A stretch of DNA of 64,000 nucleotides from Candidatus Poribacteria bacterium (GTDB taxonomy: Bacteria; Poribacteria; WGA-4E; WGA-3G): NCBI GenBank assembly GCA_007571305.1, contig RKRR01000119.1:21954-85953 (forward strand), written 5' to 3'. The notes under the pieces were generated by a model that saw only the letters and a list, made by a program, of their open reading frames with translations, searched no databases and had not been told where the DNA came from. Shown here in pieces: positions 32,536 to 57,026 of this stretch. The position numbers and the translations under genes were made by a program. Each line of letters opens with the position of its first letter. The stretch's first letter is position 1.

Positions 32536-35328
32536 TTAACCACCGTGGCATCTCTTATATTTCTTGCCGCTTCCACAAGGACAGGGTGCGTTTCTACCGA
32601 CCTTCGGCATGTTTCCCATTGCCTGCCGTGAAGCGAATTCGGCATCATCACTACTTGCAGTTGCCCTGCTACCCTGGGGTGCCCTCGGCTGTGGTCTACG
32701 TTGTCTACCTGTCCGTCGACTGGGAACCCGGCGCGGTGCTTCTGTATTGACGCGAGATTTGAAGATGAATTCACTGACCTGTTCTTCAATCTGTTGATAC
32801 ATACTTTCAAAGACAGTGAGTGCTTCGTTTTTGAAAACAACGATTGGGTCTTTGCCGCCATATCCTGCGCCGAACCGAATACCTTCCTCAATATAGTCGA
32901 TGTTATGGAGGTGTTCTTTCCAGTGATCATCAATCCTATCCAAAAGGAGTAGACGTTCAAGAACGCGCATCATCTCTGGCCCCATTTCGGCTTCGCGTTC
33001 CTCATAAGCGGCACGCAGTGTTTCCAGTGCCTGTTCTTGAATCTCTTCTGGACTCGCTTGCGCCAAAGGCATCTTCCACGTTGGCTGGATTGGGAATGTG
33101 GTCGTCAACCACTGTTGGAACCTATCGGGGGTCTCAAGCGGACTTCCCACCTTTTCCCCCATATTGTCCTCTATTCCATCTCTGACGACCCTCTCAATCA
33201 TCCCCCAAATCGTGGTTTTGAGGGAGGTAGGAGTTTTAGCATTCTTTTCAGCGAGCGCGGCGAGTCCTCCATCTTCGGCTGTGCCTTCGTGTTCTGATAA
33301 TTCGGAGACATCTGTAGCGGAAGCCAAGACGGTGTCACGCAAAGTGTAGATGGTATCGCGCTGTGTATCCATAACATCATCGAATTTCAGGAGATTTTTT
33401 CGGATCTCGAAATACATCTGTTCAACACGTGTCTGAGCTTTCTCAATGGACTTCGTAACCCACGGATGCTCTAAGGGAACACCATCATCCATTCCGACAC
33501 GTGTCATCAACCCTTGTAAACGCTCAGATCCGAATTTTCGCATCAATTCGTCTTCAAGGGAAAGGTAGAATCGAGATGAGCCTGGATCTCCCTGTCTACC
33601 GGATCGTCCACGGAGCTGGTTATCAATACGTCGGGACTCGTGGCGTTCGGTGCCGATGATATGTAGACCGCCAGCGGCCAATACCTTTTCTTTCTGTTCG
33701 TCGCAAACGGCTTGTGCTTCTGCAAGTGCTGCTTGGTATTCTTCGGACTCTGGAGAGAGTGCCTCTGTCTTAGTTTTCTGTTTCCGTAGCGTTTCGATTG
33801 CCATACCTTCGGGGTTACCGCCAAGCAGAATGTCCACACCTCGCCCCGCCATATTCGTTGCGATAGTTACAGCACCAGGAACACCAGCCTGTGCGATGAT
33901 ATCGGCTTCGCGTGTGTGTTCCTTAGCGTTCAGAACCTGATGTCGGATTTTCCGATGTTTCGTCCTGAGCATCTTGCTCAATTTCTCGGAATTTTCAATC
34001 GAAACAGTGCCAACAAGGACTGGACGCCCCATTTCGGTCTGCTCGACGATATCTTGTAAGACAGCACTGTATTTTGCGTTCTCGGTACTGTAAATTTGGT
34101 CGGAATGGTCAATTCGGACCATAGGTTCGTTAGTGGGGATGACAGAGACCTCTAATCCGTAGATGTGGGCGAATTCGTTCGCTTCCGTTGCCGCGGTACC
34201 GGTCATACCTGCAAGTTTATCGTACATGCGGAAGTAATTTTGATAGGTAATCTTAGCACCCGTCTCGCTCTCCTCTACGACTTTAACGCGTTCCTTCGCT
34301 TCGATGGCTTGATGGAGTCCTTCGCTGAGCCGCCTCCCAATCTGCTTTCGTCCTGTGAATTCGTCAACGAGGAGGACTTCGCCATTTTCGACGAGATAAT
34401 CGACATCGCGTTTGTAGAGCTGATGCGCAGTGAGTGCTTGATTGACGTGATGCACCATAGCGATGTTCGTGTGTTCGTAAAGGTTGCCTACACCGAGGCG
34501 ACGTTCGACTTCTTCAACGCCTTCATCGGTAAGGGTTACACTGCCTCGCGATTTTCCCTCTTGATCGATTTGGAAGTGTTCGCTCTCCCGGAGTTGAGCC
34601 ACGACGCTGTTAATTTGCCGATAAAGTTCTGGCGGTTTACCGGAGGGTTCTGAGATGATGAGCGGGGTCCGGGATTCATCAATGAGGATGCTGTCAACTT
34701 CGTCAAGGATAGCATAGACGTGTCCGCGCTGTACTTTATCTTCAATCGAGAGTGCTTTGTTGTCCCAGAGATAATCGAATCCAAATTCGCTGTGAACACC
34801 GTAAGTGATGTCTGATTTATATCCCAGCCTTTTCTGCTCCTTCGGCATGAGGCTCAGCGTCAATCCAACGGAGAGTCCGAGGAAGTTGTATATCCTGCCC
34901 ATCCATTCAGCATCCCGGCGTGCCAGATAATCATTGACAGTCGCGAGATGCACACCTTTTCCAGTCAAGGCATTTAAATAAACAGCGAGGGTCGAGGTGA
35001 GTGTTTTGCCTTCACCTGTGCGCATCTCTGCAATAGTGCCTTGGTGGAGCGCGATACCTCCCATAATTTGAACATCATAATGTCGCTGTTTTAAGGTTCG
35101 CACCGCGGCTTCACGGACGACAGCAAAGGCATCTGGTAAGAGGTCATCAAGCGATACACCAGCATCCAACTGTCTGCGAAATTCTGGTGTTTTGGATTGC
35201 AGTTGTGCGTCGGTGAATTTTTTGACTTCAGGTTCGCGCTGGTTGACGGCCTCTACGATGTCTCGAAATTTTCTGACATCGCGATCCTCTTTGCTACCGA
35301 AGACTTTAGTTATCATTTTTTGGAACAT
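32536..35328 (-). CDS. secA: preprotein translocase ATPase SecA
   Basis: [22 protein letters not shown]-terminus, [29 protein letters not shown], and a C-terminal zinc tail [14 protein letters not shown]. Confidence 0.97.
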
Positions 35329-35405
35329 CTTTTTACCTATCTGCTCTTTAGCACCTCTCACATTGTGGAAGGCGATGTATCTTTAAGTCATGATAGACGT
35401 GGTAT

Positions 35406-36533
35406 TCATCCTTCATTCGCTCCAGTTGATTGCGATTCAAAGGGGACTAACAAATTCTGTCCGTCGAACCTCTTTCGCACTATCGTATAAATTATCGTGT
35501 TTCCGGCAGAGGCGATTGAAAACAGGTATGCAATTACTAACCCCGCCCCCATGAGGAACGTGATTGTCAAAAAGAGAGCAGTCACTGGGGTCGTGACCGC
35601 CGCTATTCCTGTCAGTGTAGACGTATGATCGCTTGTACCGATGTTGAAGACTCCGAGACTATTAATATAGGGCAGTGCTGCTATCTTTTCAACAACACCA
35701 CCGAGCCATACGTTTGCGTAGCTCATACATTGCTGCATCACTTCGGTGTGAAAGAGGCGCGTCGGAAGCAGCACGATCGAAAAGCCCGCAAGGCAAAAGA
35801 AAGCCCAAATGGGCACGAAAATAAATTTGATAAGGAGCAACATCGCCTCATAACACACTAACAGCCAAGATTTGTTCCAAACCATTGCGAACTGCTGATA
35901 AATTATCTCAAAGGCATCAGCACCTGTCGTAGCGGCAACTGCTGGCACAAAGAGCAGGCTCACACTGAAAACCATTACGATCAATGCCATCAGAAGACCG
36001 AAAAAAAATCCGATAGGCATGAAAAGTGAGGCGAGCATGAGGAAAGGTTTGCCCACTGCCGGTAACTTCGCGATTCCTGCGATACTGAGAGGAACTATCG
36101 CGAGAAATACCTGGATGAGAAGTAAGCCGATGAACGCGCCAAAAACGGATTTCCAATGTCCTTTGAGGAAAGTTAAAGCATCCCCGACCGAAAAAAAGAA
36201 ATCCCCACGGAGTTGTTCGATGGTGATTTTGGAAGCCACGGTGCTTGCTAAGAAGAAGATGCACGCGAAACTCACTATCCCTATCCACATTGCGATTTCA
36301 GTTGTCTGTGTAAGTTCTGCATCACCGAACGGAGGTAGAGGTAAGAGTGCATACTTGTTCCAGAAGTCCTGCGCGGCACTACCTCCTACAAAGACGAGGC
36401 TGAGATACACCAAAGTTTCGTAAATTAGATATGCGAGAACGAGCCCGATGAGATGGACTGCGATCTTTCGCCCACTGAATCCGTAGCGGATAACTTGGAA
36501 AATATCCCTGAAATCGAAGTAACGTTTTTCCAT
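35406..36533 (-). CDS. polytopic integral membrane protein of unknown function
   Basis: 375 aa with about 8 hydrophobic segments and no motif I recognise. It ends 44 bp upstream of secA on the same strand. Confidence 0.6.
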   Translation of the reverse strand: MEKRYFDFRDIFQVIRYGFSGRKIAVHLIGLVLAYLIYETLVYLSLVFVGGSAAQDFWNKYALLPLPPFGDAELTQTTEIAMWIGIVSFACIFFLASTVASKITIEQLRGDFFFSVGDALTFLKGHWKSVFGAFIGLLLIQVFLAIVPLSIAGIAKLPAVGKPFLMLASLFMPIGFFFGLLMALIVMVFSVSLLFVPAVAATTGADAFEIIYQQFAMVWNKSWLLVCYEAMLLLIKFIFVPIWAFFCLAGFSIVLLPTRLFHTEVMQQCMSYANVWLGGVVEKIAALPYINSLGVFNIGTSDHTSTLTGIAAVTTPVTALFLTITFLMGAGLVIAYLFSIASAGNTIIYTIVRKRFDGQNLLVPFESQSTGANEG

Positions 36534-36701
36534 AAAAGGGTCTTCTGCTTTTTTGCGTGTTCTTATATTTAATGATACGACAATTGGGGTATTTTGTCAA
36601 GTAGTTATTCGTTGTCAGTCATCGGTTACCGGTTTCAGTACCACCCCTAATTTCCTTTATTAGGAGGCAGAAAGTATGCCATCAGGATATCCGTTCTACC
36701 G

Positions 36702-37418
36702 TTACCGGTCAGTGGGGACTACTTTGGCGGTGACGGGGAGGGTCAATGTTCGTTGATTTGAGAAGTGGACTGTGAGGAGTGATGAGAAGGTGCCTTTGTC
36801 TTTCAGAGGACCGAGTCGGACTGTGACAAGAGAGGTATCTGCACCCGGATTGGGTGTTATCTCCCACGTGAGTGTTTCCTGTCCCGACGGTAGAAGGCGA
36901 GTATTCGATGTGATGAGCGGGGCGTTCACAGTGAGTTTGAAGGTCTTATGATGTCTCGTTTCAGGGCGGATGTTCCCAAACTTGCAAACATTGGGAGTGA
37001 GCGTTGCAAATCGTTTTGCTGTAGCGACAATTGTCAGATGGACAATCGGAGTTTTGGGGCTGTCTGTGAAGAGGGTCGCGGTAGCTGAGGTCTCGTGATC
37101 GGGCAGCGTTTCTGGGTTGAGGACTATCTGGAACGTGCCATCTGTATCCGGTTGGATTATCTCCGGTCCTGTGATTTCGGCATAACTGCACCCTGTGTGA
37201 ACGTTTTGGATGTCGAGAGGGAATTTACCTATGTTTCGTGCTGTCACGTATCGTGTTACCGGTCCTTCCCATTCTGGGATCACTCCGAAGTGGACCTGTT
37301 GAGGCATCAGAACGAGTTCGGCTGCGGGGCCTTGTCGATTGTTGATGAGGAAGACGGCAAGCCCAGAAATCAGCAGTGCGGGGATGATGATGATTGTGAG
37401 GATTCTGCGTTTGGACAT
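36702..37418 (-). CDS. DUF1573 domain protein (membrane-anchored, two Ig-like/PapD-like modules)
   Basis: N-terminal TM anchor. FGVIPEWEGPVTRYVTARNIGKFPLDIQNVHTGCSYAEI matches the DUF1573 pattern (F.FG.v......f...N.G..pL.I..v...C.C). Confidence 0.7.
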   Translation of the reverse strand: MSKRRILTIIIIPALLISGLAVFLINNRQGPAAELVLMPQQVHFGVIPEWEGPVTRYVTARNIGKFPLDIQNVHTGCSYAEITGPEIIQPDTDGTFQIVLNPETLPDHETSATATLFTDSPKTPIVHLTIVATAKRFATLTPNVCKFGNIRPETRHHKTFKLTVNAPLITSNTRLLPSGQETLTWEITPNPGADTSLVTVRLGPLKDKGTFSSLLTVHFSNQRTLTLPVTAKVVPTDR

Positions 37419-37535
37419 AACTCGGTATTTTGTGAGTGAGGACTTCCCACTTGGAAGGTCACACACCTAAAAGCGATTCGTAGAACGACTGCTTCCCTCA
37501 TGAATCGCCTATGCCGTTCCTGAATTGGATGTTTT

Positions 37536-38237
37536 CTATCTCTGCTTGAGTCGTCCCCATATTAGCGTTAATCTTATCTCCGGGGAAACGTTCAGTCCGG
37601 AAATGGTGAAGGAATCCGCCCATGCCGCTCCGACCCACTCATTTGCGATGTTAATGCCTTCCATGACAAAGCCGAGAATTTCGACCTTATCGAAGTTTGC
37701 ATCTTGAAACACTGTACGGAGCGTGCCATCTGCGAATAGTACAAAATGTCCGGCATTAAATTCGAGTTCCATCTTTTCAAGGGTATCCGTTTCCCAGCGG
37801 GTGCGTGGTTCCCTGGAGAGCCGAATTCGGAAGGGATGGCTACTTCCTCTACCGTCGAATCGCCTCGCTCTGATTTCATCTGGGAAAAATACATAGAAGA
37901 ACGGATCCTCTTGCGGAGTATCAGGAAAACGTCGTCCTACACAAAAACCGAAACGCGTTTTGTCACCACCGAAGTCGTTTATCGTGATTATGAAGTTTCT
38001 ATAGGGCGGTGGGAGTGCGATAAATTGATAGAGCTCGTATTGCACATCCCATTCCCGATTGACTTCTGCGTGTAAGAATCCGTCCTCGATTTTCCAGAGA
38101 GAATCGTTCCCGACGACTCGCCATGCTTCAGGATTTTCGGCATCAAAATCGTCGTGCCAAGTCTGGGCGGAGGCGGAAAAAGCACAGTTCATAAGCGTAT
38201 AAAGAAATATGAGGATTGTTGCGTTTATGTTTGACAT
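37536..38237 (-). CDS. secreted DUF1080/LamG-like jelly-roll protein, paralogue B2, with C-terminal VSP..RLT..WG.LK tag
   Basis: Signal peptide ending ...SASA-QTW. W..VGNDSLWKIEDGFLHAE follows the DUF1080-like pattern. Same length (233 aa) and roughly 40% identity by eye to 39237..39938. Confidence 0.6.
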   Translation of the reverse strand: MSNINATILIFLYTLMNCAFSASAQTWHDDFDAENPEAWRVVGNDSLWKIEDGFLHAEVNREWDVQYELYQFIALPPPYRNFIITINDFGGDKTRFGFCVGRRFPDTPQEDPFFYVFFPDEIRARRFDGRGSSHPFRIRLSREPRTRWETDTLEKMELEFNAGHFVLFADGTLRTVFQDANFDKVEILGFVMEGINIANEWVGAAWADSFTISGLNVSPEIRLTLIWGRLKQR

Positions 38238-38376
38238 CGGATGATTTTTAGTTCACATCGCAGTGAGATTTATCAGTTGTCAGTAACCCTTCAACCCCAT
38301 TATCACAGAAACACGTCAGAAGAGTCGGGATCCGGTGCTATTAGAACAGCACCTACAATTCCTGGGGATGCAGAGA

Positions 38377-39117
38377 CTAATTGATTTTTATACAGTCGTA
38401 CCACTGTTGCGTTTTCTTTCCTTTCCGACTCAGGACCCCGGGTTTGCGTTCGACTGGGGGATCGAAGTCTCCATCTTTTTGTTTTAGGACGTTCCAGTCG
38501 GGAGGGAACCATGTTCTGAGGGTTTTGCAGTTGACTTCAACGGTCTCGCCCTCCCATCCACCGATTTTGTAGTACATCGGGCAGACCCATCGTTCCGCGC
38601 CACGGGCATACCGCCGCCAACCGATGACAGAGGCTTGTGCTCGGATAATGTTTCCGTCCCTCCAGTGTCGTTCCACCCCGCTCCACGGATAGCCTGTTGT
38701 TCCGCTCCCTATACTAATTTCATCCCATCCTAAATCGTCTCGGAGCGTAATATAAGAGAAGTTTGTGCCCCACGGTGTGTCGTCTGTGCTGAAATACCAC
38801 CGTTGACCACGATACCACCGGAGAGCGCCTCGAATACTCGAACGGGAAACCGCTGCGCTTTCGATGGTTTCCACAATGTCAAACCGCCCCCTATTGTTAT
38901 AGGGGTTGTGAACACCAGGACAGAGCGTAAGCGAGTTGAGTTCAGGTCCGAACCACGTGCCGTTCACACCGGGCGTTCTATAATAGAAGCCTGAATTCGC
39001 GGGTTGAGCACGCTCCCCGGGGTTCAACCTCGCTCTGGCGTAGGTGCTCCAAAACGCGACGACAAGAACCACCACGAGTAGGCAGGCATCGAAAATCAAA
39101 TCCAAATTTTTTCGCAT
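38377..39117 (-). CDS. membrane-anchored conserved hypothetical protein, paralogue A2
   Basis: N-terminal TM helix. Shares the blocks YYR.PG, WFGPE, TDDTPWGT, GYPWSG.E.HWRDG and C-terminal WYDC with 39975..40763. No family recognised. Confidence 0.6.
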   Translation of the reverse strand: MRKNLDLIFDACLLVVVLVVAFWSTYARARLNPGERAQPANSGFYYRTPGVNGTWFGPELNSLTLCPGVHNPYNNRGRFDIVETIESAAVSRSSIRGALRWYRGQRWYFSTDDTPWGTNFSYITLRDDLGWDEISIGSGTTGYPWSGVERHWRDGNIIRAQASVIGWRRYARGAERWVCPMYYKIGGWEGETVEVNCKTLRTWFPPDWNVLKQKDGDFDPPVERKPGVLSRKGKKTQQWYDCIKIN

Positions 39118-39236
39118 TTTTTCATCTTACCTTGCGGATGATGAGAAGGTCGGTGCGGTTTCCGAACCGCACCGATTCCGAGGTGTCCACTCAATTCTCA
39201 TATCTATCATAGCTGCTAATCGCCGACCAACAAGCA

Positions 39237-39938
39237 TCAAGGCTGCCGCTTCAAGTCTGCCCATGCCGTTGTTAATTTTCGTTTCGGTGAGACTGCAAGT
39301 CCATCAATGGTAAAGGTATCTACCCACGCGCTCCCCGTGTTAACGTCCTCTGTGACAAATCCAGCGAGTACGAAGGCTATCGTATCAATGTGATCGAAGT
39401 TTGCATCCCTGAAGTCGAGACGCGCCTCGCCATTCGCACTCAATTGAAATCTGCCGTTCTTGAAGTGGAGTTCCATCTGTTGAAGTTCGTCGGTGTCCCA
39501 GCGTCTTTGGGGGCCCACAAATACGCCGCCGTCTCTTGAGGCTTGCATATCGTTCGTGAAAAAGAGATAGTAGCCATCCTCCTCCATCTCGGTCACGGGA
39601 TTTTGGAAATGCTTTGCGAGTGCGATACCGAATCGAGCGCGCGCTGCGCCGGCGGTTTCAAGGGTGATCGTAAAGTCATTATAGGGACCGGGATAGGCGA
39701 TGAATTGGTAGCGTTCAAATATGACACTCCATTGATTTTGTGCCTGAATTTCTGCCCTTAAAAATCCATCTCCGACCCTCCAGACAGAATCGTTTCCGAC
39801 GTGTTGCCAGTCATCTACTGCCTCTTGTTCAAAGTGGTCTTCCCAAAAAGCGGCATTCACACTCCCTTGTAAAAGGAGGAACGTATAAACGATAATGAGA
39901 GTGTTTAGCAGATGTGCGACGTTTTTCATTTCGTTCAA
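39237..39938 (-). CDS. secreted DUF1080/LamG-like jelly-roll protein, paralogue B1, with C-terminal VSP..KLTT.W..LK tag
   Basis: Signal peptide present. W.HVGNDSVWRVGDGFLRAE. Paralogue of 37536..38237. Confidence 0.6.
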   Translation of the reverse strand: MNEMKNVAHLLNTLIIVYTFLLLQGSVNAAFWEDHFEQEAVDDWQHVGNDSVWRVGDGFLRAEIQAQNQWSVIFERYQFIAYPGPYNDFTITLETAGAARARFGIALAKHFQNPVTEMEEDGYYLFFTNDMQASRDGGVFVGPQRRWDTDELQQMELHFKNGRFQLSANGEARLDFRDANFDHIDTIAFVLAGFVTEDVNTGSAWVDTFTIDGLAVSPKRKLTTAWADLKRQP

Positions 39939-39974: not shown

Positions 39975-40763
39975 CTATTTTAGCGGCAAGCAGTCGTACC
40001 AATTACCTGTCCCTTTTTCGCGGCGGCTGAGTTGGTTGGAATCGGGGCGGAATGTCGGATCCGTCAAGTGCCCCTCGGTGTGACTTAGGACTTTCAAGTT
40101 AAGCTGTCCCGTTCCAGTCGTACAGGTGTAGTTCAGCGTCCCTACTTTGATGTATTTCGGCGCGAGGTATTTTTTGCCAGTGTTCTCACATGGATAGTAA
40201 CCGACTATATCTGACTTAGATTTTACGGAGTCTCCGTCACGCCAGTGTTCCTCGAACCCACTCCAAGGGAATCCGGTGGTACTGTTCCCAGAGTCAATAT
40301 CCGTCCAACCGATCTCGGATGCAAGGGTAATGCGGACGGTATCTGTGCCCCAAGGCGTGTCATCAGTTGCGAAACGCCATTCCTGTTTCCGATACCACCA
40401 CACCTTTCCGGGTCTTGAGGAGGGCCAGACTTGGGCATCTTCTCTGGTATAGATGATGTCAAAGAATCCTGCGTCGTTAAATGGGTGTGCTATCATCTGA
40501 CAAAGCACTCGACTATCGATTTCTGGTCCGAACCAGCGATTTTCGTTTTCGGATGCAATGAATTTGCCTGGGTTTCGGTAGTAATCGCCAGCGGCTTTCG
40601 GAACAGCAATCTCCTGAGTGATGATCCTTTCCCCATCATTATACGCGCCGTGCAAACCAGCATTTGCGGGGATCAAAAAAAATAGCATAGTGACGATTGT
40701 CGTTAGCGTCAGTGTGAAGGAGTATTTATGTGTCATACGGAACGTGTTTGTTAAAAGTTTCAT
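39975..40763 (-). CDS. membrane-anchored or secreted conserved hypothetical protein, paralogue A1
   Basis: ORF 39975..40811. Start set at MKLLTNTF (40763), leaving a 37-bp gap to the upstream gene. Shares conserved blocks with 38377..39117. Confidence 0.6.
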   Translation of the reverse strand: MKLLTNTFRMTHKYSFTLTLTTIVTMLFFLIPANAGLHGAYNDGERIITQEIAVPKAAGDYYRNPGKFIASENENRWFGPEIDSRVLCQMIAHPFNDAGFFDIIYTREDAQVWPSSRPGKVWWYRKQEWRFATDDTPWGTDTVRITLASEIGWTDIDSGNSTTGFPWSGFEEHWRDGDSVKSKSDIVGYYPCENTGKKYLAPKYIKVGTLNYTCTTGTGQLNLKVLSHTEGHLTDPTFRPDSNQLSRREKGTGNWYDCLPLK

Positions 40764-40800
40764 GCCGCCTTTATGGTGGACAGCACGCGGATCATACCTA

Positions 40801-42345
40801 CTACTCTGCAAAGGGTGTGCCGTCTCGCCTCCCTATGTAGATGCGATATGTGGTGCCAGCAACAGGAATATCAATCTGTTTGTGAACAAGCGTCCGTTGA
40901 TAGCGGCCTGTCACCCCGTCTAATACAACGTGAACCGCACGGATATGGAGTTGATAGTGAGTCTCTGTTAGATTGTGGAATTCAAATTTTCCCTGCGCGT
41001 CTGTTTCCACCTCAAACCGATCCAGTGTCATTGACATGTCATAGGGCTGTAATTCCCACGGGTACCATGAACGCGAAACGATAGCATTGTGGACAGGTTC
41101 ACCTGTATCTGCCCAGAAAACTTGCCCTTGAAGTGTTATTGTGGGTTGATCCGCTACAATAAGCACTTGTTCAGGATTCATTGACGCGTCCACGTCAATC
41201 CGGGCCGCCGAGATGTCGTCTCCGACAGTATAGAGAATATATTTTTCCGCAAAAAGTCCATCAATGACAAAAGTAGATGCTGTCACAGGAAAGTGTTTTG
41301 ACAAAATTGGTCTTCGCAATACTAATGGATTCAGGCTTGGCTCCATCTGTCCATCTATGGGGAACACCTTCACAGTATACTGTCCATCAGAGGATATATT
41401 CTGTGGGAGGATTACACGCCCTTTAACGCTCGCCCCTTTCTTGAGTGGTAGAATTGACGGCATCTTGTCAATGTCTACGTTCTCGTAGACTCTCGTAAAG
41501 TACCCCCTTTTGCTGACCTCAAGTGAAAGCAATCGTGGCTCAGTCTCTAATATCTCCATCCGGAAGTTGCCTGCCTCGTTTGTTTCTGTTGATGACAGAA
41601 GTGCGCTGTGCCCCTGGGATGTCGCTGTGTGTCGAGTTGCGTGGATATGGGCATCTGCTATTGGTCGTTTCTGCGCATCGACAACCGTGCCGCTTAACGT
41701 TTTCAACTTCGGTAGATTGATGGAAATCCGCTCCTGTTTTTGTGGGTTCATCGACTCTATAAACGCTATGATAAAACCATTCCGAGAAATTGTCAAGGTG
41801 TATTCGATGGGGTAGAGTTCAGTAAAATGGAAATTGCCTGTGGTATCGGTCTTCACAACGTGTTCAATCGGTGCGGCGGCGCGAAAGAAGTCTGCCGACT
41901 TGTTGTGCATCTTCAGCTCCACAATAAGCCCAGCGACATTTTTCCTCCCAGAAATATTGCCTTGCAGAGGTAGAGTCCGCCTCAACGCAACTATCCTTAA
42001 ATCATAATTATTTTTTCCGGAAATCATCTCCTGTTGTAAACGTTTCGCTTGATATTGCGGATGAAGTGCCATGAGTGCGAAAGCGTAGTAGGTTTGATTC
42101 GCTTTGGGAATGGTCAGCGAAAAAGCACCTTTGATATCTGTTGCCATTGCGTGCGCGAACTCTTGATCGGGATAGACACGGTCAATTTTTTCAGCAGCGA
42201 TGCGTACGAGCACTTCTGGAATCGGCTGTCCATCTTGGGCATCAACGATCCTGCCGTGGAAGGTGATGTTGTCTGGGGTTTGGCAGATACCAGAGGCGGT
42301 ATAGAGAAAAAGAAACAAAATTGAACGACTGATATAATTCTGCAT
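40801..42345 (-). CDS. secreted multi-repeat carboxypeptidase-regulatory-like (CarboxypepD_reg/Ig-like) domain protein
   Basis: The tracked ORF 40801..42561 runs over two tRNA genes. Start set at MQNYISRSILFLFL (42345), which begins a signal peptide. Repeated G.V.D....PI..A.V modules. Confidence 0.6.
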   Translation of the reverse strand: MQNYISRSILFLFLYTASGICQTPDNITFHGRIVDAQDGQPIPEVLVRIAAEKIDRVYPDQEFAHAMATDIKGAFSLTIPKANQTYYAFALMALHPQYQAKRLQQEMISGKNNYDLRIVALRRTLPLQGNISGRKNVAGLIVELKMHNKSADFFRAAAPIEHVVKTDTTGNFHFTELYPIEYTLTISRNGFIIAFIESMNPQKQERISINLPKLKTLSGTVVDAQKRPIADAHIHATRHTATSQGHSALLSSTETNEAGNFRMEILETEPRLLSLEVSKRGYFTRVYENVDIDKMPSILPLKKGASVKGRVILPQNISSDGQYTVKVFPIDGQMEPSLNPLVLRRPILSKHFPVTASTFVIDGLFAEKYILYTVGDDISAARIDVDASMNPEQVLIVADQPTITLQGQVFWADTGEPVHNAIVSRSWYPWELQPYDMSMTLDRFEVETDAQGKFEFHNLTETHYQLHIRAVHVVLDGVTGRYQRTLVHKQIDIPVAGTTYRIYIGRRDGTPFAE

Positions 42346-42445
42346 GAGAATTCTGATTGGGAGGTAGTTCCTACAAAAAGAAAAGCCCCTTAGCAGGAGA
42401 GGCTTGTCTTCTAAAAGAACTATTTTGCGTTTGATTTGAGTGAGA

Positions 42446-42520
42446 TACCCCCGACGAGATTTGAACTCGTGTCGCCGCCGTGAAAGGGCGGTGTCCTTGG
42501 CCAGGCTAGACGACGGGGGC
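42446..42520 (-). tRNA. tRNA-Glu (anticodon UUC)
   Basis: Minus-strand read GCCCCCGTCGTCTAGCCTGGCCAAGGACACCGCCCTTTCACGGCGGCGACACGAGTTCAAATCTCGTCGGGGGTA. It folds as a cloverleaf with anticodon loop CTTTCAC. No CCA is encoded. Confidence 0.9.
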
Positions 42521-42530
42521 AGAAAAAATG

Positions 42531-42603
42531 TGAGCCGTACAGGGATCGAACCTGTGACCACCTGATTAAAAGTCAGATGCTCTACCAGCTGAGCTAACGG
42601 CTC
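42531..42603 (-). tRNA. tRNA-Lys (anticodon UUU)
   Basis: Minus-strand read GAGCCGTTAGCTCAGCTGGTAGAGCATCTGACTTTTAATCAGGTGGTCACAGGTTCGATCCCTGTACGGCTCA. Anticodon loop is CTTTTAA and the T-loop is GGTTCGATCC. Confidence 0.92.
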
Positions 42604-51865: not shown

Positions 51866-52942
51866 ATGTTTATGCTGAACCGCCGAAACGCCTACTCTCT
51901 TTTTGTTATGCTGTTGGTTGCTATCACTGTAGAGCGTAGTGATGCTAACGCTTGGGTGCTGCAGACCGAAGTGCCAACATCCAGAAATGGGACCTCGACG
52001 GCTGTCGTTAACGGCAAAATTTATATCATCGGTGGTGTGCCTTATAGTAACAAGGCAGGACCGGGTTGGTCTGCCCTTCCAACGGTAGAAGTTTATGACA
52101 CGCGTATCGGTGCGTGGGGAAAAGCCGCGGATATGCCAACACCCCGAATCGCTGCGCAGGCTGCGGTTTTTGCTCGTGAAATCTATGTGTTCGGTGGATA
52201 CAGTCGGGGAAAGATTCGCGGTGAAAAAGACCATAAAACCGTTGAAGCCTACAACACACGAACCAATACCTGGTCAAAAACGCGAGACATGCCAACGCTT
52301 CGCCGTGGATTTAGAACAGCCGTTGTTGATGGAAAAATATACGTCATCGGTGGCGCGATTTTCGATAGAGAACGCGATGTTAGAGTCGCCACTGATCTCG
52401 TTGAAGCCTATGACCCGTTGACAGAGCGGTGGAAAAAGCGCGCCAGCATGCCAACCAAACGCATGTGGGTTGATACAGCGGTTGTGAATCATAAAATTTA
52501 TGCAATTGGCGGTGAAGTTTCACCTCGGCATGGTGTCCCGCCTGATGACCAGTTTTTTGCAAGAATTGAGGAATACAATCCAAAAACTGACCGTTGGCGA
52601 AAACACCCTGATATGCCACTATTGCGGTTTTCCTTTTCTACTGTTGCCATCGATAAGAAAATTTATCTGATTGGTGGGTACACTCGGGAGAATGGATTTA
52701 AAACTCTCACCTCAATAGATGTCTATGAACCGAGCTTCAATAGATGGGGGGCAATACCGCCCCTACCAGTGCCCAGAATCGCTCCAGCAGTCGCTGTCAA
52801 TGGTGTCATTTATGTGCTTGGCGGTTTCGTAAGAGGACAGAGGTTCTCGCACGCCGTTGAAGCATTCGATACCGGATTTCGGGCGGTTAACCCAAAAGAC
52901 AAACTTTCAACACTCTGGGGTGAATTCAAGAAAGCCAATTAA
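51866..52942 (+). CDS. secreted Kelch-repeat beta-propeller protein with C-terminal AVNP.DKLSTLWG.FK tag
   Basis: Signal peptide present. Six or more repeats of the ..GKIY(V/I)IGG.. motif. Confidence 0.85.
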   Translation: MFMLNRRNAYSLFVMLLVAITVERSDANAWVLQTEVPTSRNGTSTAVVNGKIYIIGGVPYSNKAGPGWSALPTVEVYDTRIGAWGKAADMPTPRIAAQAAVFAREIYVFGGYSRGKIRGEKDHKTVEAYNTRTNTWSKTRDMPTLRRGFRTAVVDGKIYVIGGAIFDRERDVRVATDLVEAYDPLTERWKKRASMPTKRMWVDTAVVNHKIYAIGGEVSPRHGVPPDDQFFARIEEYNPKTDRWRKHPDMPLLRFSFSTVAIDKKIYLIGGYTRENGFKTLTSIDVYEPSFNRWGAIPPLPVPRIAPAVAVNGVIYVLGGFVRGQRFSHAVEAFDTGFRAVNPKDKLSTLWGEFKKAN

Positions 52943-54105: not shown

Positions 54106-55185
54106 CTAAGAAATCGGGACAATCTCACCGGTTTTGACAGATTCTGCTTCCTTATAGCAGAGCAGCAACGCATCCCTCGCTCCGACACCGGACAGTGCCG
54201 TGGGTTCGTTTTCCCAGTCGATCGCGTCAACAGCGTATTGCAGTTCATCGGCGAAGGCATCAATCGGGTCGACCTCCCCTAAATCGACGCGTTCAACTTC
54301 ACCTTCATCGTTCAGAAGTGTCAGTGGCACTGCGGTAGAGGCTTCACCTGCTAATGTTGAAAAGTCGTAAAGTAGGGTGGCTTTTTCAAGGTAGATTTCA
54401 AATCCGTGTGAGAAAGCGCGTCCACGTTGCGAGACAGCACCCGACGAACAACTGACGGAAAGGTCTTTATCATTATAGATGTATTGGGTCGTCAGGTAAT
54501 CTACATAATTGCCGCTGGCGATTTTGCCTTGTGAGAAGACTGCATCGGGGGCACCGCAGAGCAGTTGGATGAAATGGGTGTCGTGGATGTGTAAATCGAT
54601 ACCGGGACCACCAATTTTTGCGATGTCGCCGACATGTCGTGACCAACTCGGTTTAGAAATAATTCGCTTGAAATGGGCACCGAGGAGCTGACCGTATTTT
54701 CCCTCTTCTACCACCCGTTTTGCATAGGCATATTCAGCAAAGAAGGGCAGTACGTGTGCGACCATCAGGAAACATGGGCTTTCATTAGCTGCTTTCCGCG
54801 CTGTGCCTATCTTTTCCGCGAGTTCAACGAGTTCATTGGCATCGTCAATAGAGATAGAAATCGGTTTTTCAACAAGCGTGTGTTTTCCGGCTTCGAGGGA
54901 TGCCATACTAACGGGTTTGTGCAGATGTGTCGGCAGGCAAATATCAACTAGTTCAACCTCTTCATCGGCGAGAAGTTCGTCAATCTCGCTATATTTTCGG
55001 ACGTTTGCGAGGTCTTCCATGCCCCCTCGGGGTCCGAAATTACCTTGAATGCCGGTCCAATCACCCGCGAGTTTTTTTGGATCTCGTGTGCAAATGGCAA
55101 CTACTTGGGCACCGGTAATGCGCTGAATGGCATAGTAATGAATCATGCCCATAAATCCGATACCAACGATTCCGATTTTTGTCAT
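54106..55185 (-). CDS. Gfo/Idh/MocA family oxidoreductase
   Basis: MTKIGIVGIGFMGMIHY Rossmann N-terminus and the EKP motif (LVEKPIS). Confidence 0.88.
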   Translation of the reverse strand: MTKIGIVGIGFMGMIHYYAIQRITGAQVVAICTRDPKKLAGDWTGIQGNFGPRGGMEDLANVRKYSEIDELLADEEVELVDICLPTHLHKPVSMASLEAGKHTLVEKPISISIDDANELVELAEKIGTARKAANESPCFLMVAHVLPFFAEYAYAKRVVEEGKYGQLLGAHFKRIISKPSWSRHVGDIAKIGGPGIDLHIHDTHFIQLLCGAPDAVFSQGKIASGNYVDYLTTQYIYNDKDLSVSCSSGAVSQRGRAFSHGFEIYLEKATLLYDFSTLAGEASTAVPLTLLNDEGEVERVDLGEVDPIDAFADELQYAVDAIDWENEPTALSGVGARDALLLCYKEAESVKTGEIVPIS

Positions 55186-55281
55186 TTTCTCGATTTCCCC
55201 TATTTTATAGCAGAAAGCACAGGTACCGGTCCCTTATTAAGGGTGATATCTGTGCCGTTGAGCGTTTGTGCGAGACCACAC

Positions 55282-56073
55282 TTAGTATGTGCCGGTTCTT
55301 GACTTAATGCTGCCCCATGTCGTTGTTGCTTTATCACGAGGTGAAACTGCGAGGAATCCTTCGTTCATTATCTCGTTGATTTCGTCCTCACTGAGCGCAC
55401 GCCGCCAGACTGCTGCTTCGTCAATAGAACCGTTCTCAAAGGTATAATTCGGACGATCTTTAGAGCATCCGATCCGCAAGTCCTGATCGTTAGTGCCTTT
55501 GAAATCAAACTTTTCTTCTTTCTCTGCGGCGACTTCGCCATCAACGTAGACCTTCATGGTTGACCCATCATAGGTTCCAACGACATGCTGCCATTTCTTG
55601 GTATCCAGGGCATGTGGCTGGCTCAACGTGGGTCTACTGTTGCCTGTCCCTAAGAACATATTAAAATTCGCACCTCCGTTGAAAGCACCGATGCCGTAGG
55701 AGGAATGCTCACCTCCGTTATGACAGTTTTTGTCGAACCACTGGCCATCAGTTGCCCAAGAGTCCTGATTGATCCAAGCCGCCATCGTGATTTCACCCGT
55801 GATTTTCAGGTCGTCGGAGGCTGGTACATTCACACAATCCGGTCCTACATTTGTAATACGAATCGCATCCCCGTACTTGCCCTTCACAATATCAGTATTG
55901 GCGATGATATCTGCGTCCAGCCCGTTGCCGGAATCGTCAACAATCACCTTACCTTTGACATTATCAAACGTGAAGTAGACGACGAGTCCTTCAGCGAGAT
56001 CTGCCGTGGCGTATCCTGCTGCCATAAGCATCAACGCGCTGAGTAGTACGGCATAACCAAATAGCTTTTTCAC
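55282..56073 (-). CDS. secreted LamG (concanavalin A-like lectin/glucanase) domain protein with C-terminal AVSP.DKATTTWG.IK tag
   Basis: Signal peptide present. Laminin_G_3-like pattern (L..YF.FD......DSSGNG.DA, W.HV..TYDG....VYVDG, IDE..VW.RALS..EI). Confidence 0.8.
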   Translation of the reverse strand: MKKLFGYAVLLSALMLMAAGYATADLAEGLVVYFTFDNVKGKVIVDDSGNGLDADIIANTDIVKGKYGDAIRITNVGPDCVNVPASDDLKITGEITMAAWINQDSWATDGQWFDKNCHNGGEHSSYGIGAFNGGANFNMFLGTGNSRPTLSQPHALDTKKWQHVVGTYDGSTMKVYVDGEVAAEKEEKFDFKGTNDQDLRIGCSKDRPNYTFENGSIDEAAVWRRALSEDEINEIMNEGFLAVSPRDKATTTWGSIKSRTGTY

Positions 56074-56195
56074 TCTGTTTCCCTCCTGTGGAGTCTGCCT
56101 ACATCAAAAATATGAATCTGCTGTCTGAAATTGATTAGAGTATATCACGACATTAGGGAGAATGCAATGTGTTTTTATTTTCCTATCAGGAGTTT

Positions 56196-57026
56196 CTACG
56201 CTTCCAAGACGAGCACGGCGTTCATGAGTTCTTCCCATCTGCCCTCAAATTTCTCGCCGAATTCGGTTTCTCCGCCGGTTGCGAGGGGACCCCGCAGCAT
56301 GGGTTTGGTTGTGTTGTTATTTTCCCAAAGTTCCTTACCGCCGAAGTCGTTGTGGAGGAAGTGAAGTGCCACGCCTGCGCGTTCCTTATCGGAAAGGTTA
56401 GATTTTGTGCAATGTGCCACGCCGTAGCAGAAGAAGAGCACGCCCCCTGCTTTCAGTTCGATCGGGACAGCGCGTTCTTCGGGCGGATCGCACCGGATAT
56501 GGTGGTCGCTCAACGGGTCGCGATAGTGCTCGTAACTCTCCCGATGGCTACCGGGGATCACGTGCATGCAACCGTTCTTGACGCTTGAGTCATGGATAGC
56601 GATCCACATTGCTGTCCCCCGCAACGGGTCCGCAATTTTGAAATAGGCGTTGTCTTGATGCCAACTCGTACCGATACCAACCTTGGGGGGTTTCCAGAAT
56701 GCCTGATCCAGTTCTAACATGAATTCATCTCCGATCAATTGTTGAACGGCGGAGATGACTTTTGGATGGAAGGGTAAAGCTTTGTGCAAGTCGCTACGGT
56801 TGTTGAGCGGAATTACCTGAAGGTTTTGACGTTCACCCGCATTGTCGCGCTTGGTTCCGTCTGATTGCACGGCGCAATTGATACCGGTTCCGTTTTTGAG
56901 TTCAGTATCGTAAATCCGTTCTAATTCCAGCCGGAGTGCCTTTGCTTCAACGGGATCGAAAAACCCTTCGATGACAATATACCCATTATTTCGGAATTCC
57001 GCGAGTTGCTTCTCACTTAATTTCAT
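56196..57026 (-). CDS. phytanoyl-CoA dioxygenase (PhyH) family Fe(II)/2-oxoglutarate oxygenase
   Basis: FRNNGYIVIEGF, TSWHQDNAYF and HVIPGSH facial-triad context. Confidence 0.85.
   Translation of the reverse strand: MKLSEKQLAEFRNNGYIVIEGFFDPVEAKALRLELERIYDTELKNGTGINCAVQSDGTKRDNAGERQNLQVIPLNNRSDLHKALPFHPKVISAVQQLIGDEFMLELDQAFWKPPKVGIGTSWHQDNAYFKIADPLRGTAMWIAIHDSSVKNGCMHVIPGSHRESYEHYRDPLSDHHIRCDPPEERAVPIELKAGGVLFFCYGVAHCTKSNLSDKERAGVALHFLHNDFGGKELWENNNTTKPMLRGPLATGGETEFGEKFEGRWEELMNAVLVLEA

What the first reader, a model, noticed from the sequence alone, without database searches (positions are those of the whole stretch)
37536..39938. Shared non-hydrophobic C-terminal tag on secreted proteins of unrelated folds: possible undescribed sorting or anchoring signal
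Four signal-peptide proteins end in the same roughly 20-aa motif. B1 ends GLAVSPKRKLTTAWADLKRQP and B2 ends GLNVSPEIRLTLIWGRLKQR. The LamG protein (55282..56073) ends GFLAVSPRDKATTTWGSIKSRTGTY, and the Kelch protein (51866..52942) ends GFRAVNPKDKLSTLWGEFKKAN. The consensus is G[FL]xAV[SN]P-x2,3-K[LA][ST]TxWGx[IL]K, within a few residues of the stop. Jelly-roll and beta-propeller proteins both carry it, so it is not simply the last strand of one domain. It lacks the TM helix and basic tail of PEP-CTERM, LPXTG or GlyGly-CTERM signals and is far shorter than a T9SS CTD. I cannot match it to any described sorting signal.
Basis: seen in the sequence. Interest (0 to 1): 0.78.

Follow-up and report, generated by a model that had tools for sequence, protein, structure and literature searches.

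The report
Poribacteria-specific C-terminal protein tag
An 18-residue motif ends well over a hundred exported proteins of unrelated folds in the sponge-symbiont phylum Poribacteria, matches no described sorting signal, and in some proteins sits directly before a type IX secretion domain, so it is probably an undescribed cell-envelope sorting or anchoring signal.

Summary
All four window proteins end in G-L-A-V-S-P-x-[GD]-K-L-T-T-T-W-G-x-[LI]-K plus 2-6 variable residues. A six-frame scan of the window finds the motif nowhere else.

- **Distribution.** A degenerate DNA pattern scanned over 185,579 species' genomes gave 117 hits in Candidatus Poribacteria or unnamed MAGs, all within 14 residues of a stop codon. 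Ten hits in other taxa were not C-terminal.
- **Carriers.** They fall into at least 17 unrelated families, including LamG, DUF1080-like jelly rolls, PD40, Kelch and BNR propellers, CBM9, cohesin, LTD+FN3 and ankyrin-metalloprotease. About 92% have a signal-peptide-like N-terminus and almost none has a lipobox or extra TM segment.
- **Not a known signal.** No Pfam or NCBIfam model matches the tail.
- **Not part of the fold.** AlphaFold2 leaves it outside two carrier folds.
- **Not a DNA element.** Synonymous codons vary freely.
- **New lead.** Poribacteria also carry genuine T9SS type A C-terminal domains (TIGR04183). In six proteins the full tag sits exactly three residues before that domain, where the mature C-terminus would lie after its removal.

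Best reading: a phylum-specific, trans-recognised C-terminal sorting or anchoring motif. The receptor or enzyme is unknown.

The parts
37539..37601 (-). C-terminal tag of B2: SGLNVSPEIRLTLIWGRLKQR (last 21 aa before the stop at 37536-37538)
   Evidence: kept in 106 of 112 B-family homologues, the exceptions being fragments
37536..38237 (-). B2 carrier, 233 aa: signal-peptide-like N-terminus (MSNINATILIFLYTLMNCAFSASA), then a concanavalin/GH16-like jelly roll, then the tag
   Evidence: AF2 model has a confident domain to about aa 215 and a tail of pLDDT 58-62. Foldseek matches GH16 glucanases and legume lectins at TM about 0.5
39240..39305 (-). C-terminal tag of B1: DGLAVSPKRKLTTAWADLKRQP
   Evidence: 23.1 bits against the tail HMM, 7 aa from the stop
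39237..39938 (-). B1 carrier, 233 aa, paralogue of B2 (43% identity), with a signal-peptide-like N-terminus and a weak DUF1080 (PF06439) match
52874..52939 (+). C-terminal tag of the Kelch protein: GFRAVNPKDKLSTLWGEFKKAN (divergent, with N in place of S/T before the P)
   Evidence: 8.6 bits; orthologue in L032 ends AVNPKDKLSTHWGKLKKSN
51866..52942 (+). Kelch beta-propeller carrier, 358 aa, with a signal-peptide-like N-terminus
   Evidence: Kelch_1 E = 3.2e-59
55285..55359 (-). C-terminal tag of the LamG protein: GFLAVSPRDKATTTWGSIKSRTGTY
   Evidence: W253 and K257 are invariant, and V243, K248, T251, T252 and G254 are at least 90% conserved, across 50 orthologues. The last ~7 residues vary
55282..56073 (-). 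LamG (Laminin_G_3) carrier, 263 aa, GTG start, with a signal-peptide-like N-terminus
   Evidence: AF2 gives pLDDT above 90 for the domain to about aa 240 and about 41 for tail residues 243-263

Best explanation
The tail is a Poribacteria-specific linear C-terminal motif. It is recognised in trans in the cell envelope after Sec export, and it sorts or tethers small lectin-like, beta-propeller and repeat proteins. The core is (G)-L-A-V-S-P-x-[GD]-K-L-T-T-T-W-G-x-[LI]-K, followed by 1-14 variable polar or basic residues. The proposed sequence of events is as follows. (1) SecA/SecYEG exports the precursor and signal peptidase I removes the N-terminal signal. This is inferred from signal-peptide-like N-termini and the near absence of lipoboxes. 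(2) The folded passenger domain carries the tag as a flexible tail. This is supported by low AF2 confidence for the tail in two different carriers. (3) A dedicated receptor or enzyme binds the conserved V-S-P...K-L-T-T-T-W-G-x-I-K face. This step is inferred and the partner was not found. (4) The protein is retained at, or attached to, the envelope with the tag as its mature C-terminus. In proteins that also carry a T9SS type A C-terminal domain, the tag lies exactly three residues before that domain, where removal of the domain would leave the tag at the new C-terminus. In tag-only proteins a short variable extension, most often 2-3 residues and almost never zero, occupies the same place. My preferred sub-model, which is speculative, is a sortase- or PorU-like transpeptidation or trimming step. 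That step would use either the extension or the C-terminal domain as leaving group. Non-covalent docking to a common envelope receptor is the alternative.
For: Strict C-terminal position: all 117 genome pattern hits in Poribacteria or unnamed MAG loci lie within 14 aa of a stop. None of the 10 hits in other taxa is a real C-terminal tag. All 136 HMM hits of 20 bits or more are C-terminal, as are 57 of 58 hits among 1.84e9 protein representatives.
Fold independence: the carriers form 17 unrelated clusters, including LamG, PD40, DUF1080, Kelch, CBM9, cohesin, BNR and LTD+FN3. An ankyrin+metalloprotease carrier adds another.
Exported, soluble carriers: 135 of 146 have signal-peptide-like N-termini against 187 of 546 controls. 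Lipobox-like motifs occur in 4 of 135 and extra TM-like segments in 3 of 146.
Selection acts on the peptide, not the DNA: all synonymous codons are used at conserved positions. The tag is kept in 119 of 120 LamG and 106 of 112 B homologues, while the residues after the K drift.
Not part of the fold: tail pLDDT is about 41 in LamG and 58-62 in B2, beside domains with pLDDT above 90.
Link to T9SS-type cargo: TIGR04183 hits score above the curated cutoff on poribacterial WD40 proteins. A spacing-specific regex, run on contigs selected only for the T9SS domain, matched 13 times: 8 at C-termini, 5 exactly 3 aa before L[YF]QN[YF]PNPF, and 0 elsewhere. One further case is in genome locus L073.
Extension after the invariant K is zero in only 1 of 168 tags, with a mode of 2-3 aa.
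Against: No receptor, protease or transpeptidase was identified. No untagged gene family recurs next to different carrier families, and the window neighbours give no candidate. SecA is housekeeping, and the others are DUF1573, CarboxypepD_reg and unknown proteins. T9SS machinery was reported as not found in poribacterial single-cell genomes (PMC3909097), and I could not search whole genomes for it. Tag-only proteins have no known way across the outer membrane, so they may simply be periplasmic. AF2 draws the tail as a weak helix, so its bound conformation is unknown. The fixed tag-to-domain spacing in six proteins could reflect one ancestral fusion rather than a functional requirement. Signal peptides were called with a home-made heuristic, not SignalP. 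No expression, proteomic or localisation data exist.
Confidence: 0.55

Rival explanations
1. Self-association motif. The tags bind each other, or a tagged scaffold, as a short amphipathic helix or beta-hairpin zipper. This would assemble different exported modules into a heteromeric periplasmic or surface layer without a dedicated sorting machine.
For: L(-4), W(0) and I/L(+3) fall on one helical face flanked by K(-5) and K(+4), and AF2 draws a low-confidence helix in both models. Many carriers are tandem paralogue arrays. Most carriers are small single-domain binders, median 273 aa.
Against: The hydrophobic face has only three residues. Thr-rich, Gly-containing sequence is a poor coiled-coil or zipper former. 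Self-association does not explain the strict C-terminal position or the fixed position before the T9SS domain.
Confidence: 0.12
2. C-terminal degron or quality-control tag. A periplasmic tail-specific or C-terminal processing protease reads it and sets the turnover of a regulon of exported proteins.
For: The motif is strictly C-terminal, disordered and conserved. C-terminal recognition by PDZ-proteases such as Prc and CtpA is established biology (my knowledge).
Against: Those proteases prefer apolar C-termini. Here the terminal residues are variable and mostly R, Q or K, so the free end is not what is conserved. Keeping a degron on 119 of 120 orthologues of many families is hard to rationalise. 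It does not explain the position before a T9SS domain.
Confidence: 0.07
3. Post-translational modification site, for example O-glycosylation of the T-T-T run or acylation of a conserved Lys. In this reading the modification, not a receptor, confers the property such as membrane or LPS association.
For: The T-T-T and two Lys positions are conserved. T9SS cargo in Bacteroidota is covalently joined to anionic LPS at the new C-terminus (PMC4804311 abstract, seen; my knowledge).
Against: W, G, V and P are conserved as strongly as T and K, which suggests recognition of a whole peptide surface. No glycosyl- or acyl-transferase is consistently nearby. This overlaps with the best explanation rather than excluding it.
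Confidence: 0.15
4. Autonomous outer-membrane export signal: a minimal functional equivalent of a T9SS C-terminal domain, read by an unknown translocon. Tag-only proteins would then be surface-exposed or released.
For: The tag occupies the same architectural slot, on the same kinds of passenger domains, as T9SS C-terminal domains and PEP-CTERM in other phyla (my knowledge). Paralogous PD40/WD40 proteins carry either the tag or a TIGR04183 domain.
Against: When both are present the tag is upstream of the T9SS domain, not replacing it. That fits a mature-end motif better than a second export signal. No translocon candidate was found.
Confidence: 0.2
5. Artefact: chance similarity, a repeated DNA element at gene 3' ends, or the last strand of a shared domain.
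For: None after testing.
Against: Only four hits in the window, all C-terminal. Free synonymous codon use. Unrelated folds. Low AF2 confidence for the tail. Phylum-wide recurrence.
Confidence: 0.01

Closest known systems
T9SS type A C-terminal domain (TIGR04183, Por_Secre_tail) of Bacteroidota/FCB bacteria
   Same: Found at the C-terminus of Sec-exported proteins. Fold-independent and carried by the same kinds of passenger domains (propellers, lectin-like modules). Occurs in the same genomes, and in six proteins directly follows the tag.
   Different: The T9SS domain is a 70-100 aa beta-sandwich, whereas the tag is about 18 aa and predicted unstructured. The TIGR04183 model does not cover the tag. 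The tag lies upstream of the T9SS domain, so it would remain on the mature protein rather than be removed.
PEP-CTERM/exosortase, LPXTG/sortase, GlyGly-CTERM/rhombosortase and related tripartite sorting signals
   Same: Short, lineage-restricted C-terminal signals on signal-peptide proteins of many families. The conserved motif is followed by a dispensable stretch.
   Different: All of those have a hydrophobic TM helix and a basic cluster after the motif. Here there is no hydrophobic segment and no model match.
Dockerin-cohesin and other non-covalent docking modules
   Same: A modular C-terminal appendage that could tether diverse domains to one receptor. Cohesin and weak dockerin hits occur in Poribacteria.
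   Different: Dockerins are about 60-70 aa Ca-binding duplicated repeats and are not restricted to the extreme C-terminus. No Pfam dockerin match to the tag.
Short transpeptidase or ligase recognition tails with small leaving groups (butelase/asparaginyl endopeptidase N-HV, D-Ala-D-Ala for penicillin-binding proteins, PorU cleavage before the T9SS domain)
   Same: A conserved motif followed by a few dispensable residues. At least one residue after the invariant K is nearly obligatory.
   Different: This is purely an analogy from my own knowledge. No such enzyme was identified here, and the motif sequence is unrelated.
Braun lipoprotein Lpp C-terminal Lys linked to peptidoglycan
   Same: A conserved Lys near the C-terminus of an exported envelope protein.
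   Different: In Lpp the Lys is the terminal residue. Here only 19 of 168 proteins end in K, and the invariant K is followed by 1-14 residues. The carriers are not lipoproteins.

Membership tests
T9SS type A CTD (TIGR04183) | Match to the TIGR04183 / Por_Secre_tail profile above the curated cutoff | tested here: not met
   No TIGR04183 hit on the four window proteins at E<=1, on six tails alone at E<=10, or on six further carrier sequences at E<=10. Genuine poribacterial T9SS domains score 29-38 bits against a cutoff of 23.
T9SS type A CTD (TIGR04183) | 70-100 aa beta-sandwich domain at the C-terminus | tested here: not met
   The tail is 18-25 aa, with AF2 pLDDT of 41-62 and no sandwich.
T9SS type A CTD (TIGR04183) | T9SS machinery (SprA/Sov, PorU/V, PorK-N) in the genome | not testable with these tools
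   Whole poribacterial genomes could not be scanned. Kamke et al. 2014 reported no Por structural genes in single-cell genomes (PMC3909097).
PEP-CTERM / exosortase | PEP motif followed by a TM helix and an Arg-rich cluster | tested here: not met
   No PEP motif. Maximum 15-aa Kyte-Doolittle mean in the last 30 aa is 1.3, median 0.45. No NCBIfam hit.
LPXTG / sortase | LPXTG-like motif, hydrophobic segment and basic tail | tested here: not met
   No LPXTG and no hydrophobic segment. No NCBIfam hit.
GlyGly-CTERM / rhombosortase and other -CTERM TM signals | Signature motif followed by a TM helix at the extreme C-terminus | tested here: not met
   No TM helix. No NCBIfam hit at E<=10.
Dockerin type I | Two ~22-aa Ca-binding repeats; Pfam PF00404 match | tested here: not met
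   No Pfam hit on tails at E<=10. The length is incompatible.
Outer-membrane protein beta-signal | Terminal aromatic residue (F/W/Y) ending an amphipathic beta-strand of a beta-barrel | tested here: not met
   Terminal residues are R 53, Q 24, K 19, F 14, P 14 and others out of 168. The carriers are soluble domains.
Encapsulin / microcompartment cargo-targeting peptide | Cytoplasmic cargo without a signal peptide | tested here: not met
   135 of 146 carriers have signal-peptide-like N-termini.
Generic C-terminal protein-sorting signal (functional class) | Restricted to extreme C-termini, on signal-peptide proteins, independent of passenger fold, and lineage-restricted | tested here: met
Generic C-terminal protein-sorting signal (functional class) | A cognate processing or anchoring factor whose distribution matches that of the signal | not testable with these tools
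   The neighbourhood analysis found no shared partner. Phylogenetic profiling over whole genomes was not possible.

The most novel reading that the evidence does not exclude
The tag defines a new protein-sorting or attachment system confined to Poribacteria. An unidentified envelope enzyme or receptor would recognise V-S-P-x-x-K-L-T-T-T-W-G-x-I-K as the mature C-terminus. It would tether proteins there, covalently or not, after removing either a 1-14 aa extension or a whole T9SS-type C-terminal domain. That would make it the first sorting signal of this class with no TM helix and no folded domain. It would also couple a T9SS-like cargo pathway, in a phylum where no T9SS machinery has been reported, to the display of the eukaryote-like proteins thought to mediate sponge symbiosis.
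Probability: 0.35. Interest if true: 0.85.

Novelty: new variant of a known kind. Interest (0 to 1): 0.72.

Why it matters
Poribacteria are dominant, uncultivated sponge symbionts. Their exported Kelch, WD40/PD40, LamG, FN3, cohesin and ankyrin proteins are the main candidates for host interaction, yet where these proteins end up has been an open question. Kamke et al. 2014 noted T9SS-like tails without a secretion system.

A phylum-wide tag on these proteins gives three things. It provides a sequence handle for listing the envelope or surface proteome from any MAG. It provides a peptide bait for fishing out the receptor or enzyme from sponge-symbiont lysates. It also provides a testable link between tag-only proteins and T9SS-type cargo.

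More generally, it would add a C-terminal sorting signal with no TM helix and no folded domain to the catalogue. A curated HMM for it would improve annotation of many proteins now labelled 'hypothetical' or 'LamG domain-containing'.

Tried and rejected
With 45-aa ends it returned only ten fragmentary B and LamG ORFs, because the word index needs several shared 5-mers. This helped with tail diversity but not with finding new architectures.
2. The idea that the tag is a piece of the T9SS domain model, or of any -CTERM model, was rejected.
3. A DNA-level repeat or 3' element was rejected by the codon analysis.
4. The tail as last strand of the domain was rejected by Pfam domain limits and by two AF2 models.
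5. Gene-neighbourhood mining of about 0.96 Mb around tagged genes found no untagged family shared between carrier families. It found only family-specific partners: Gfo/Idh/MocA and PhyH next to LamG, and the 'A' protein next to B.
6. Window neighbours were annotated and give no candidate sorting enzyme: SecA, an unknown membrane protein, DUF1573, CarboxypepD_reg and PurA.
7. Literature searches found no description of the tag. They covered Poribacteria with C-terminal, signal peptide or sorting; the motif strings; Poribacteria with LamG or Kelch; and Poribacteria with T9SS or gld genes. Only Kamke 2014's remark on TIGR04183-like tails was relevant. A 2026 paper on LPS-dependent anchoring of T9SS cargo concerns the T9SS domain itself, not an upstream motif.
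8. The apparently untagged paralogues in the PD40 and LamG clusters mostly carry divergent tags below my HMM threshold, such as ...AVNPNGKLPISWGVLKR and ...VEARGKLATTWGKLK. The family is therefore broader than the strict pattern.
9. I did not scan held loci for T9SS components, because they cover under 1% of any genome and a negative result would mean nothing.
Full report

Yes. Four regular expressions of decreasing stringency were run over the six-frame translation of the whole 64-kb window (47.5% G+C). They hit only these four places, each 2-6 residues before the stop of a long ORF. A looser look at the last 32 residues of 207 window ORFs added no further tag.

All four proteins start with a basic n-region and a hydrophobic stretch typical of Sec signal peptides, as read from the sequence. 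Pfam places the LamG domain at aa 81-233 of 263. The best-scoring Kelch-family stretches listed end by aa 342 of 358. B1 gives a weak sub-threshold DUF1080 (PF06439) match at aa 32-180. Nothing covers the tails, and NCBIfam likewise finds nothing there.

**2. How far does it extend?**

*Genome scan.* I back-translated the core V-[ST]-P-x-x-[KR]-x-T-x-x-W-G-x-[LIVFM]-K into a degenerate DNA pattern. By my own calculation this pattern should give about 35 chance matches in 596 Gb. I scanned one genome for each of 185,579 species with it.
- 117 matches lie in MAGs labelled Candidatus or uncultured Poribacteria, or in unnamed 'uncultured bacterium' MAGs. Where I compared their proteins, these are close to poribacterial ones. 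Every one of the 117 is in frame and at most 14 residues from a stop.
- The 10 matches from other taxa are not C-terminal tags. These are Devosia (three), Lysobacter, Lysobacterales, Cellvibrionales, Nitrospirae, Aggregatilineales, an alphaproteobacterium and Spongiisociaceae. They have a stop inside the motif, a 17-aa ORF upstream, or 28-423 residues downstream.

*Tail HMM.* A 19-column HMM built from these tails was run on all six-frame ORFs of the loci plus the window.
- It found 172 tagged ORFs.
- All 136 hits of 20 bits or more are C-terminal, as are 27 of 29 hits between 10 and 20 bits.

*Protein-level search.* This independent search used a 22-column profile of window and database tails against 1.84 billion protein representatives, with no word index.
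- It gave 58 hits at E <= 0.001.
- 57 of them end within 10 residues of the C-terminus.
- The short profile tops out near 46 bits, so 58 is a lower bound.

*Identity of the window.* The window itself is poribacterial. The 120 closest LamG homologues listed (of 505) and the 112 B2 homologues carry, wherever a source gives a name, the label 'LamG domain-containing protein' or 'hypothetical protein' of Candidatus Poribacteria.

*Lineages beyond sponges.* Tags also occur in hot-spring MAGs (KatS3mg115, SpSt-970). They also occur on environmental metagenome contigs whose proteins NCBI assigns to Poribacteria, namely HHZ89537.1 and MBM3235610.1. The tag therefore looks like a phylum trait and is not confined to sponge-associated MAGs.

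**3. Anatomy of the tag**

I anchored 168 distinct tags on the invariant Trp. The seeding pattern inflates positions -10, -8, -3, 0, +1 and +4. Positions -12, -11, -4, -2 and -1 were unconstrained and are still conserved.

| Position | Residues |
|---|---|
| -13 | G/A |
| -12 | L 68% |
| -11 | A/S |
| -10 | V 98% |
| -9 | S/T 86% |
| -8 | P 93% |
| -6 | G/D/S |
| -5 | K/R 95% |
| -4 | L 59% |
| -3 | T 82% |
| -2 | T 79% |
| -1 | T 54% |
| 0 | W 100% |
| +1 | G 91% |
| +3 | L/I 94% |
| +4 | K 99% |

- After K(+4) come 1-14 variable residues rich in R, Q and K. The mode is 2-3 residues, and zero extension occurs once in 168.
- The terminal residue is not conserved.
- The last 22 residues carry a net charge of +2 to +4 and contain no hydrophobic segment.

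Conservation acts on the peptide, not the DNA. Every synonymous codon is used at V, S, P, K, L, T and G positions.

Within orthologous families the tag is as conserved as the domain core. In 50 LamG orthologues W253 and K257 are invariant, and V243, K248, T251, T252 and G254 are at least 90% conserved, while the residues after the K drift. The tag is present in 119 of 120 LamG and 106 of 112 B-family homologues, and the exceptions are truncated fragments.

**4. Who carries it?**

After removing the last 32 residues, 146 complete carriers fall into 17 clusters by BLAST. Pfam on the representatives gives the following families:
- Laminin_G_3
- PD40/TolB-like propellers
- DUF1080/3-keto-disaccharide hydrolase-like jelly rolls
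- Kelch
- CBM9
- cohesin
- BNR/Ycf48-like propeller
- a 1325-aa LTD+FN3 protein
- several with no Pfam match

The representative search added a zinc-metalloprotease+ankyrin protein and an ECF-sigma/TM/DUF1080 fusion.

The B2 model is a GH16/legume-lectin-like jelly roll. B and LamG therefore share a superfold, but the other carriers do not.

Of the 146 carriers, 135 have a signal-peptide-like N-terminus by my heuristic, against 187 of 546 control ORFs. Most of the 11 exceptions use GTG/TTG starts or are truncated. Only 4 of 135 have a lipobox-like motif and 3 of 146 have another TM-like segment. The median length is 273 aa.

AlphaFold2 with 47-50-sequence alignments gives confident domains with pLDDT above 90. 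The tails score pLDDT about 41 in LamG (aa 243-263) and 58-62 in B2 (aa 216-233), drawn as a weak helix that does not pack on the domain.

**5. Is it a known signal?**

None that I could find.
- The tails alone give no Pfam or NCBIfam hit at E <= 10.
- The four window proteins and six further carrier sequences give no hit to any sorting-domain model.
- The tag has no TM helix, unlike PEP-CTERM, LPXTG and GlyGly-CTERM.
- It is not a folded 70-100-aa domain, unlike the T9SS C-terminal domain.
- It is not a Ca-binding repeat, unlike dockerin.
- It does not end in an aromatic residue, unlike the outer-membrane protein beta-signal.
- It sits on signal-peptide proteins, unlike encapsulin or microcompartment cargo peptides.

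Six literature searches found no description of it. The nearest statement is from Kamke et al. 2014. They reported that many poribacterial eukaryote-like proteins, especially WD40 proteins, have a possible TIGR04183 domain although no Por secretion genes were found (PMC3909097).

**6. A new lead: the tag and genuine T9SS C-terminal domains**

Some PD40/WD40 paralogues in the fetched loci end not in the tag but in ...LLPNYPNPFNPETWIPYQL...GVYFYTL...RKMLLGK. These score 29-38 bits on TIGR04183 against a curated cutoff of 23. Poribacteria therefore do encode bona fide T9SS type A domains.

In locus L073 a divergent but correctly spaced tag directly precedes such a domain: ALSVEPFEQQVILWGQIRK-NA-LYQNFPNPF.

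To test this without bias, I scanned metagenome contigs for the domain start Y-P-N-P-F-N-P-E-T-W-I-P alone (123 T9SS domains). I then applied a spacing-specific tag regex, P..[KRQ]....W[GAS].[LIVMF][KR].
- There were 13 matches in 295,000 residues.
- Eight lie at C-termini of neighbouring genes.
- Five lie exactly three residues before L-[YF]-Q-N-[YF]-P-N-P-F.
- None lies elsewhere.

In the genome loci plus window the same regex gives 161 C-terminal matches, one pre-domain match and six others. All six others are in the non-poribacterial chance loci.

Within this phylum the motif therefore has only two positions. One is the end of the protein plus a few residues. The other is the junction where removal of a T9SS domain would leave it as the end of the protein. 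In Bacteroidota, PorU cleaves the T9SS domain and the new C-terminus is joined to anionic LPS (PMC4804311 abstract, seen; my knowledge). The three-residue spacer before the domain matches the 2-3-residue mode of the extension in tag-only proteins.

**7. Mechanism**

*Shown:*
- strict C-terminal position
- independence from the passenger fold
- association with signal peptides
- selection at the peptide level
- restriction to one phylum
- the tail not being part of the carrier fold
- co-occurrence with, and fixed juxtaposition to, T9SS type A domains

*Inferred:*
- After Sec export the tag is recognised in trans, and it marks the mature C-terminus at which the protein is retained or attached in the envelope.
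- My preferred sub-model is a transpeptidation or trimming step that uses the short extension, or the T9SS domain, as leaving group. The near-absence of tags that end at the K fits this, but it is speculative.
- Non-covalent docking of an induced helix or strand into a receptor is equally compatible. The helix reading rests on S-P as N-cap, L(-4), W(0) and I(+3) on one face, and flanking Lys residues.

*Not found:*
- any partner
- Neighbourhood analysis shows only family-specific neighbours.
- The window offers SecA, an unknown polytopic membrane protein, a DUF1573 protein and a CarboxypepD_reg protein beside the two A-B gene pairs.

How tag-only proteins would cross the outer membrane is unknown. 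They may act in the periplasm.

**8. Rivals**

| Rival | Confidence | Main weakness or status |
|---|---|---|
| Autonomous outer-membrane export signal | 0.20 | The tag lies upstream of the T9SS domain rather than replacing it. |
| Modification site | 0.15 | Overlaps with the main model rather than excluding it. |
| Self-association | 0.12 | Does not explain the strict C-terminal position. |
| Degron | 0.07 | C-termini are polar and variable; retained across whole families. |
| Artefact | 0.01 | Refuted. |

**9. Verdict**

The feature is a previously undescribed, Poribacteria-wide C-terminal tag. It is best classed as a new variant of bacterial C-terminal sorting or anchoring signals, with an unexpected link to T9SS-type cargo. 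I score interest at 0.72. This is a concrete, testable handle on the surface or envelope proteome of a major uncultivated symbiont phylum, but its function is still inferred.

Noticed in passing
L095 (ORFs ending near 2880 and 1 on the - strand), L073:1-675, L047:1-2238; metagenome loci L120-L239: Poribacteria encode genuine T9SS type A C-terminal domains (TIGR04183, 29-38 bits against a cutoff of 23) on WD40 and other proteins. Kamke 2014 reported that no Por secretion genes were found. In six proteins the short tag sits exactly 3 aa before this domain.
   Followed up: partly
window 38377-39117(-) and 39975-40811(-): Two paralogous 'A' proteins (246 and 278 aa) alternate with B2 and B1 as a tandemly duplicated A-B pair. 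They have an N-terminal hydrophobic segment, no Pfam or NCBIfam match, and a conserved ...W-Y-D-C-x-x-x-x end. The A family is the constant neighbour of the B family in other Poribacteria (15 members, adjacent to B 26 times).
   Followed up: partly
window 54106-57026(-) and related loci: The tagged LamG gene has recurrent untagged neighbour families in other Poribacteria genomes (~372 aa and ~285 aa). In the window it is flanked by a 359-aa ORF that looks Gfo/Idh/MocA-like and a 276-aa ORF that looks PhyH-like. Both assignments are by eye and untested, as is their equivalence to those two families. A shared pathway is a guess.
   Followed up: no
window 32536-37466(-): SecA (941 aa), an unannotatable polytopic membrane protein (375 aa, no Pfam or NCBIfam hit) and a DUF1573/choice-of-anchor-D-like protein lie directly next to the B2/A2/B1/A1 cluster on the same strand.
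   Followed up: partly
L101:3486-7464(+) and L011: A 1325-aa LTD+FN3 protein carries the tag after a ~100-aa unassigned C-terminal module (...FRPERQADGSIVVRWITESELDNAGFNILRSE...YYYQIQDVSLDGKVQTL...). That module had no NCBIfam hit.
   Followed up: partly
P0163, P0168 (protein representatives): Two unusual carriers. One is an ECF sigma-factor domain fused through a TM segment to a tagged DUF1080-like domain, which may be a real fusion or a merged gene call. The other is a HExxH metalloprotease+ankyrin protein ending in the tag.
   Followed up: no
P0001-P0010; L004, L038, L054, L071, L082, L093, L103: Tagged PD40 genes form tandem arrays of 3-8 paralogues. Many database entries for tagged proteins are short, N-terminally truncated ORF calls of 30-120 aa, suggesting frequent frameshifts, pseudogenes or assembly breaks in these arrays.
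   Followed up: no
window 40801-42561(-): A 586-aa protein with repeated CarboxypepD_reg / transthyretin-like domains and a DUF6795 match lies next to A1. It is untagged, and its ORF overlaps A1 by 11 nt.
   Followed up: no
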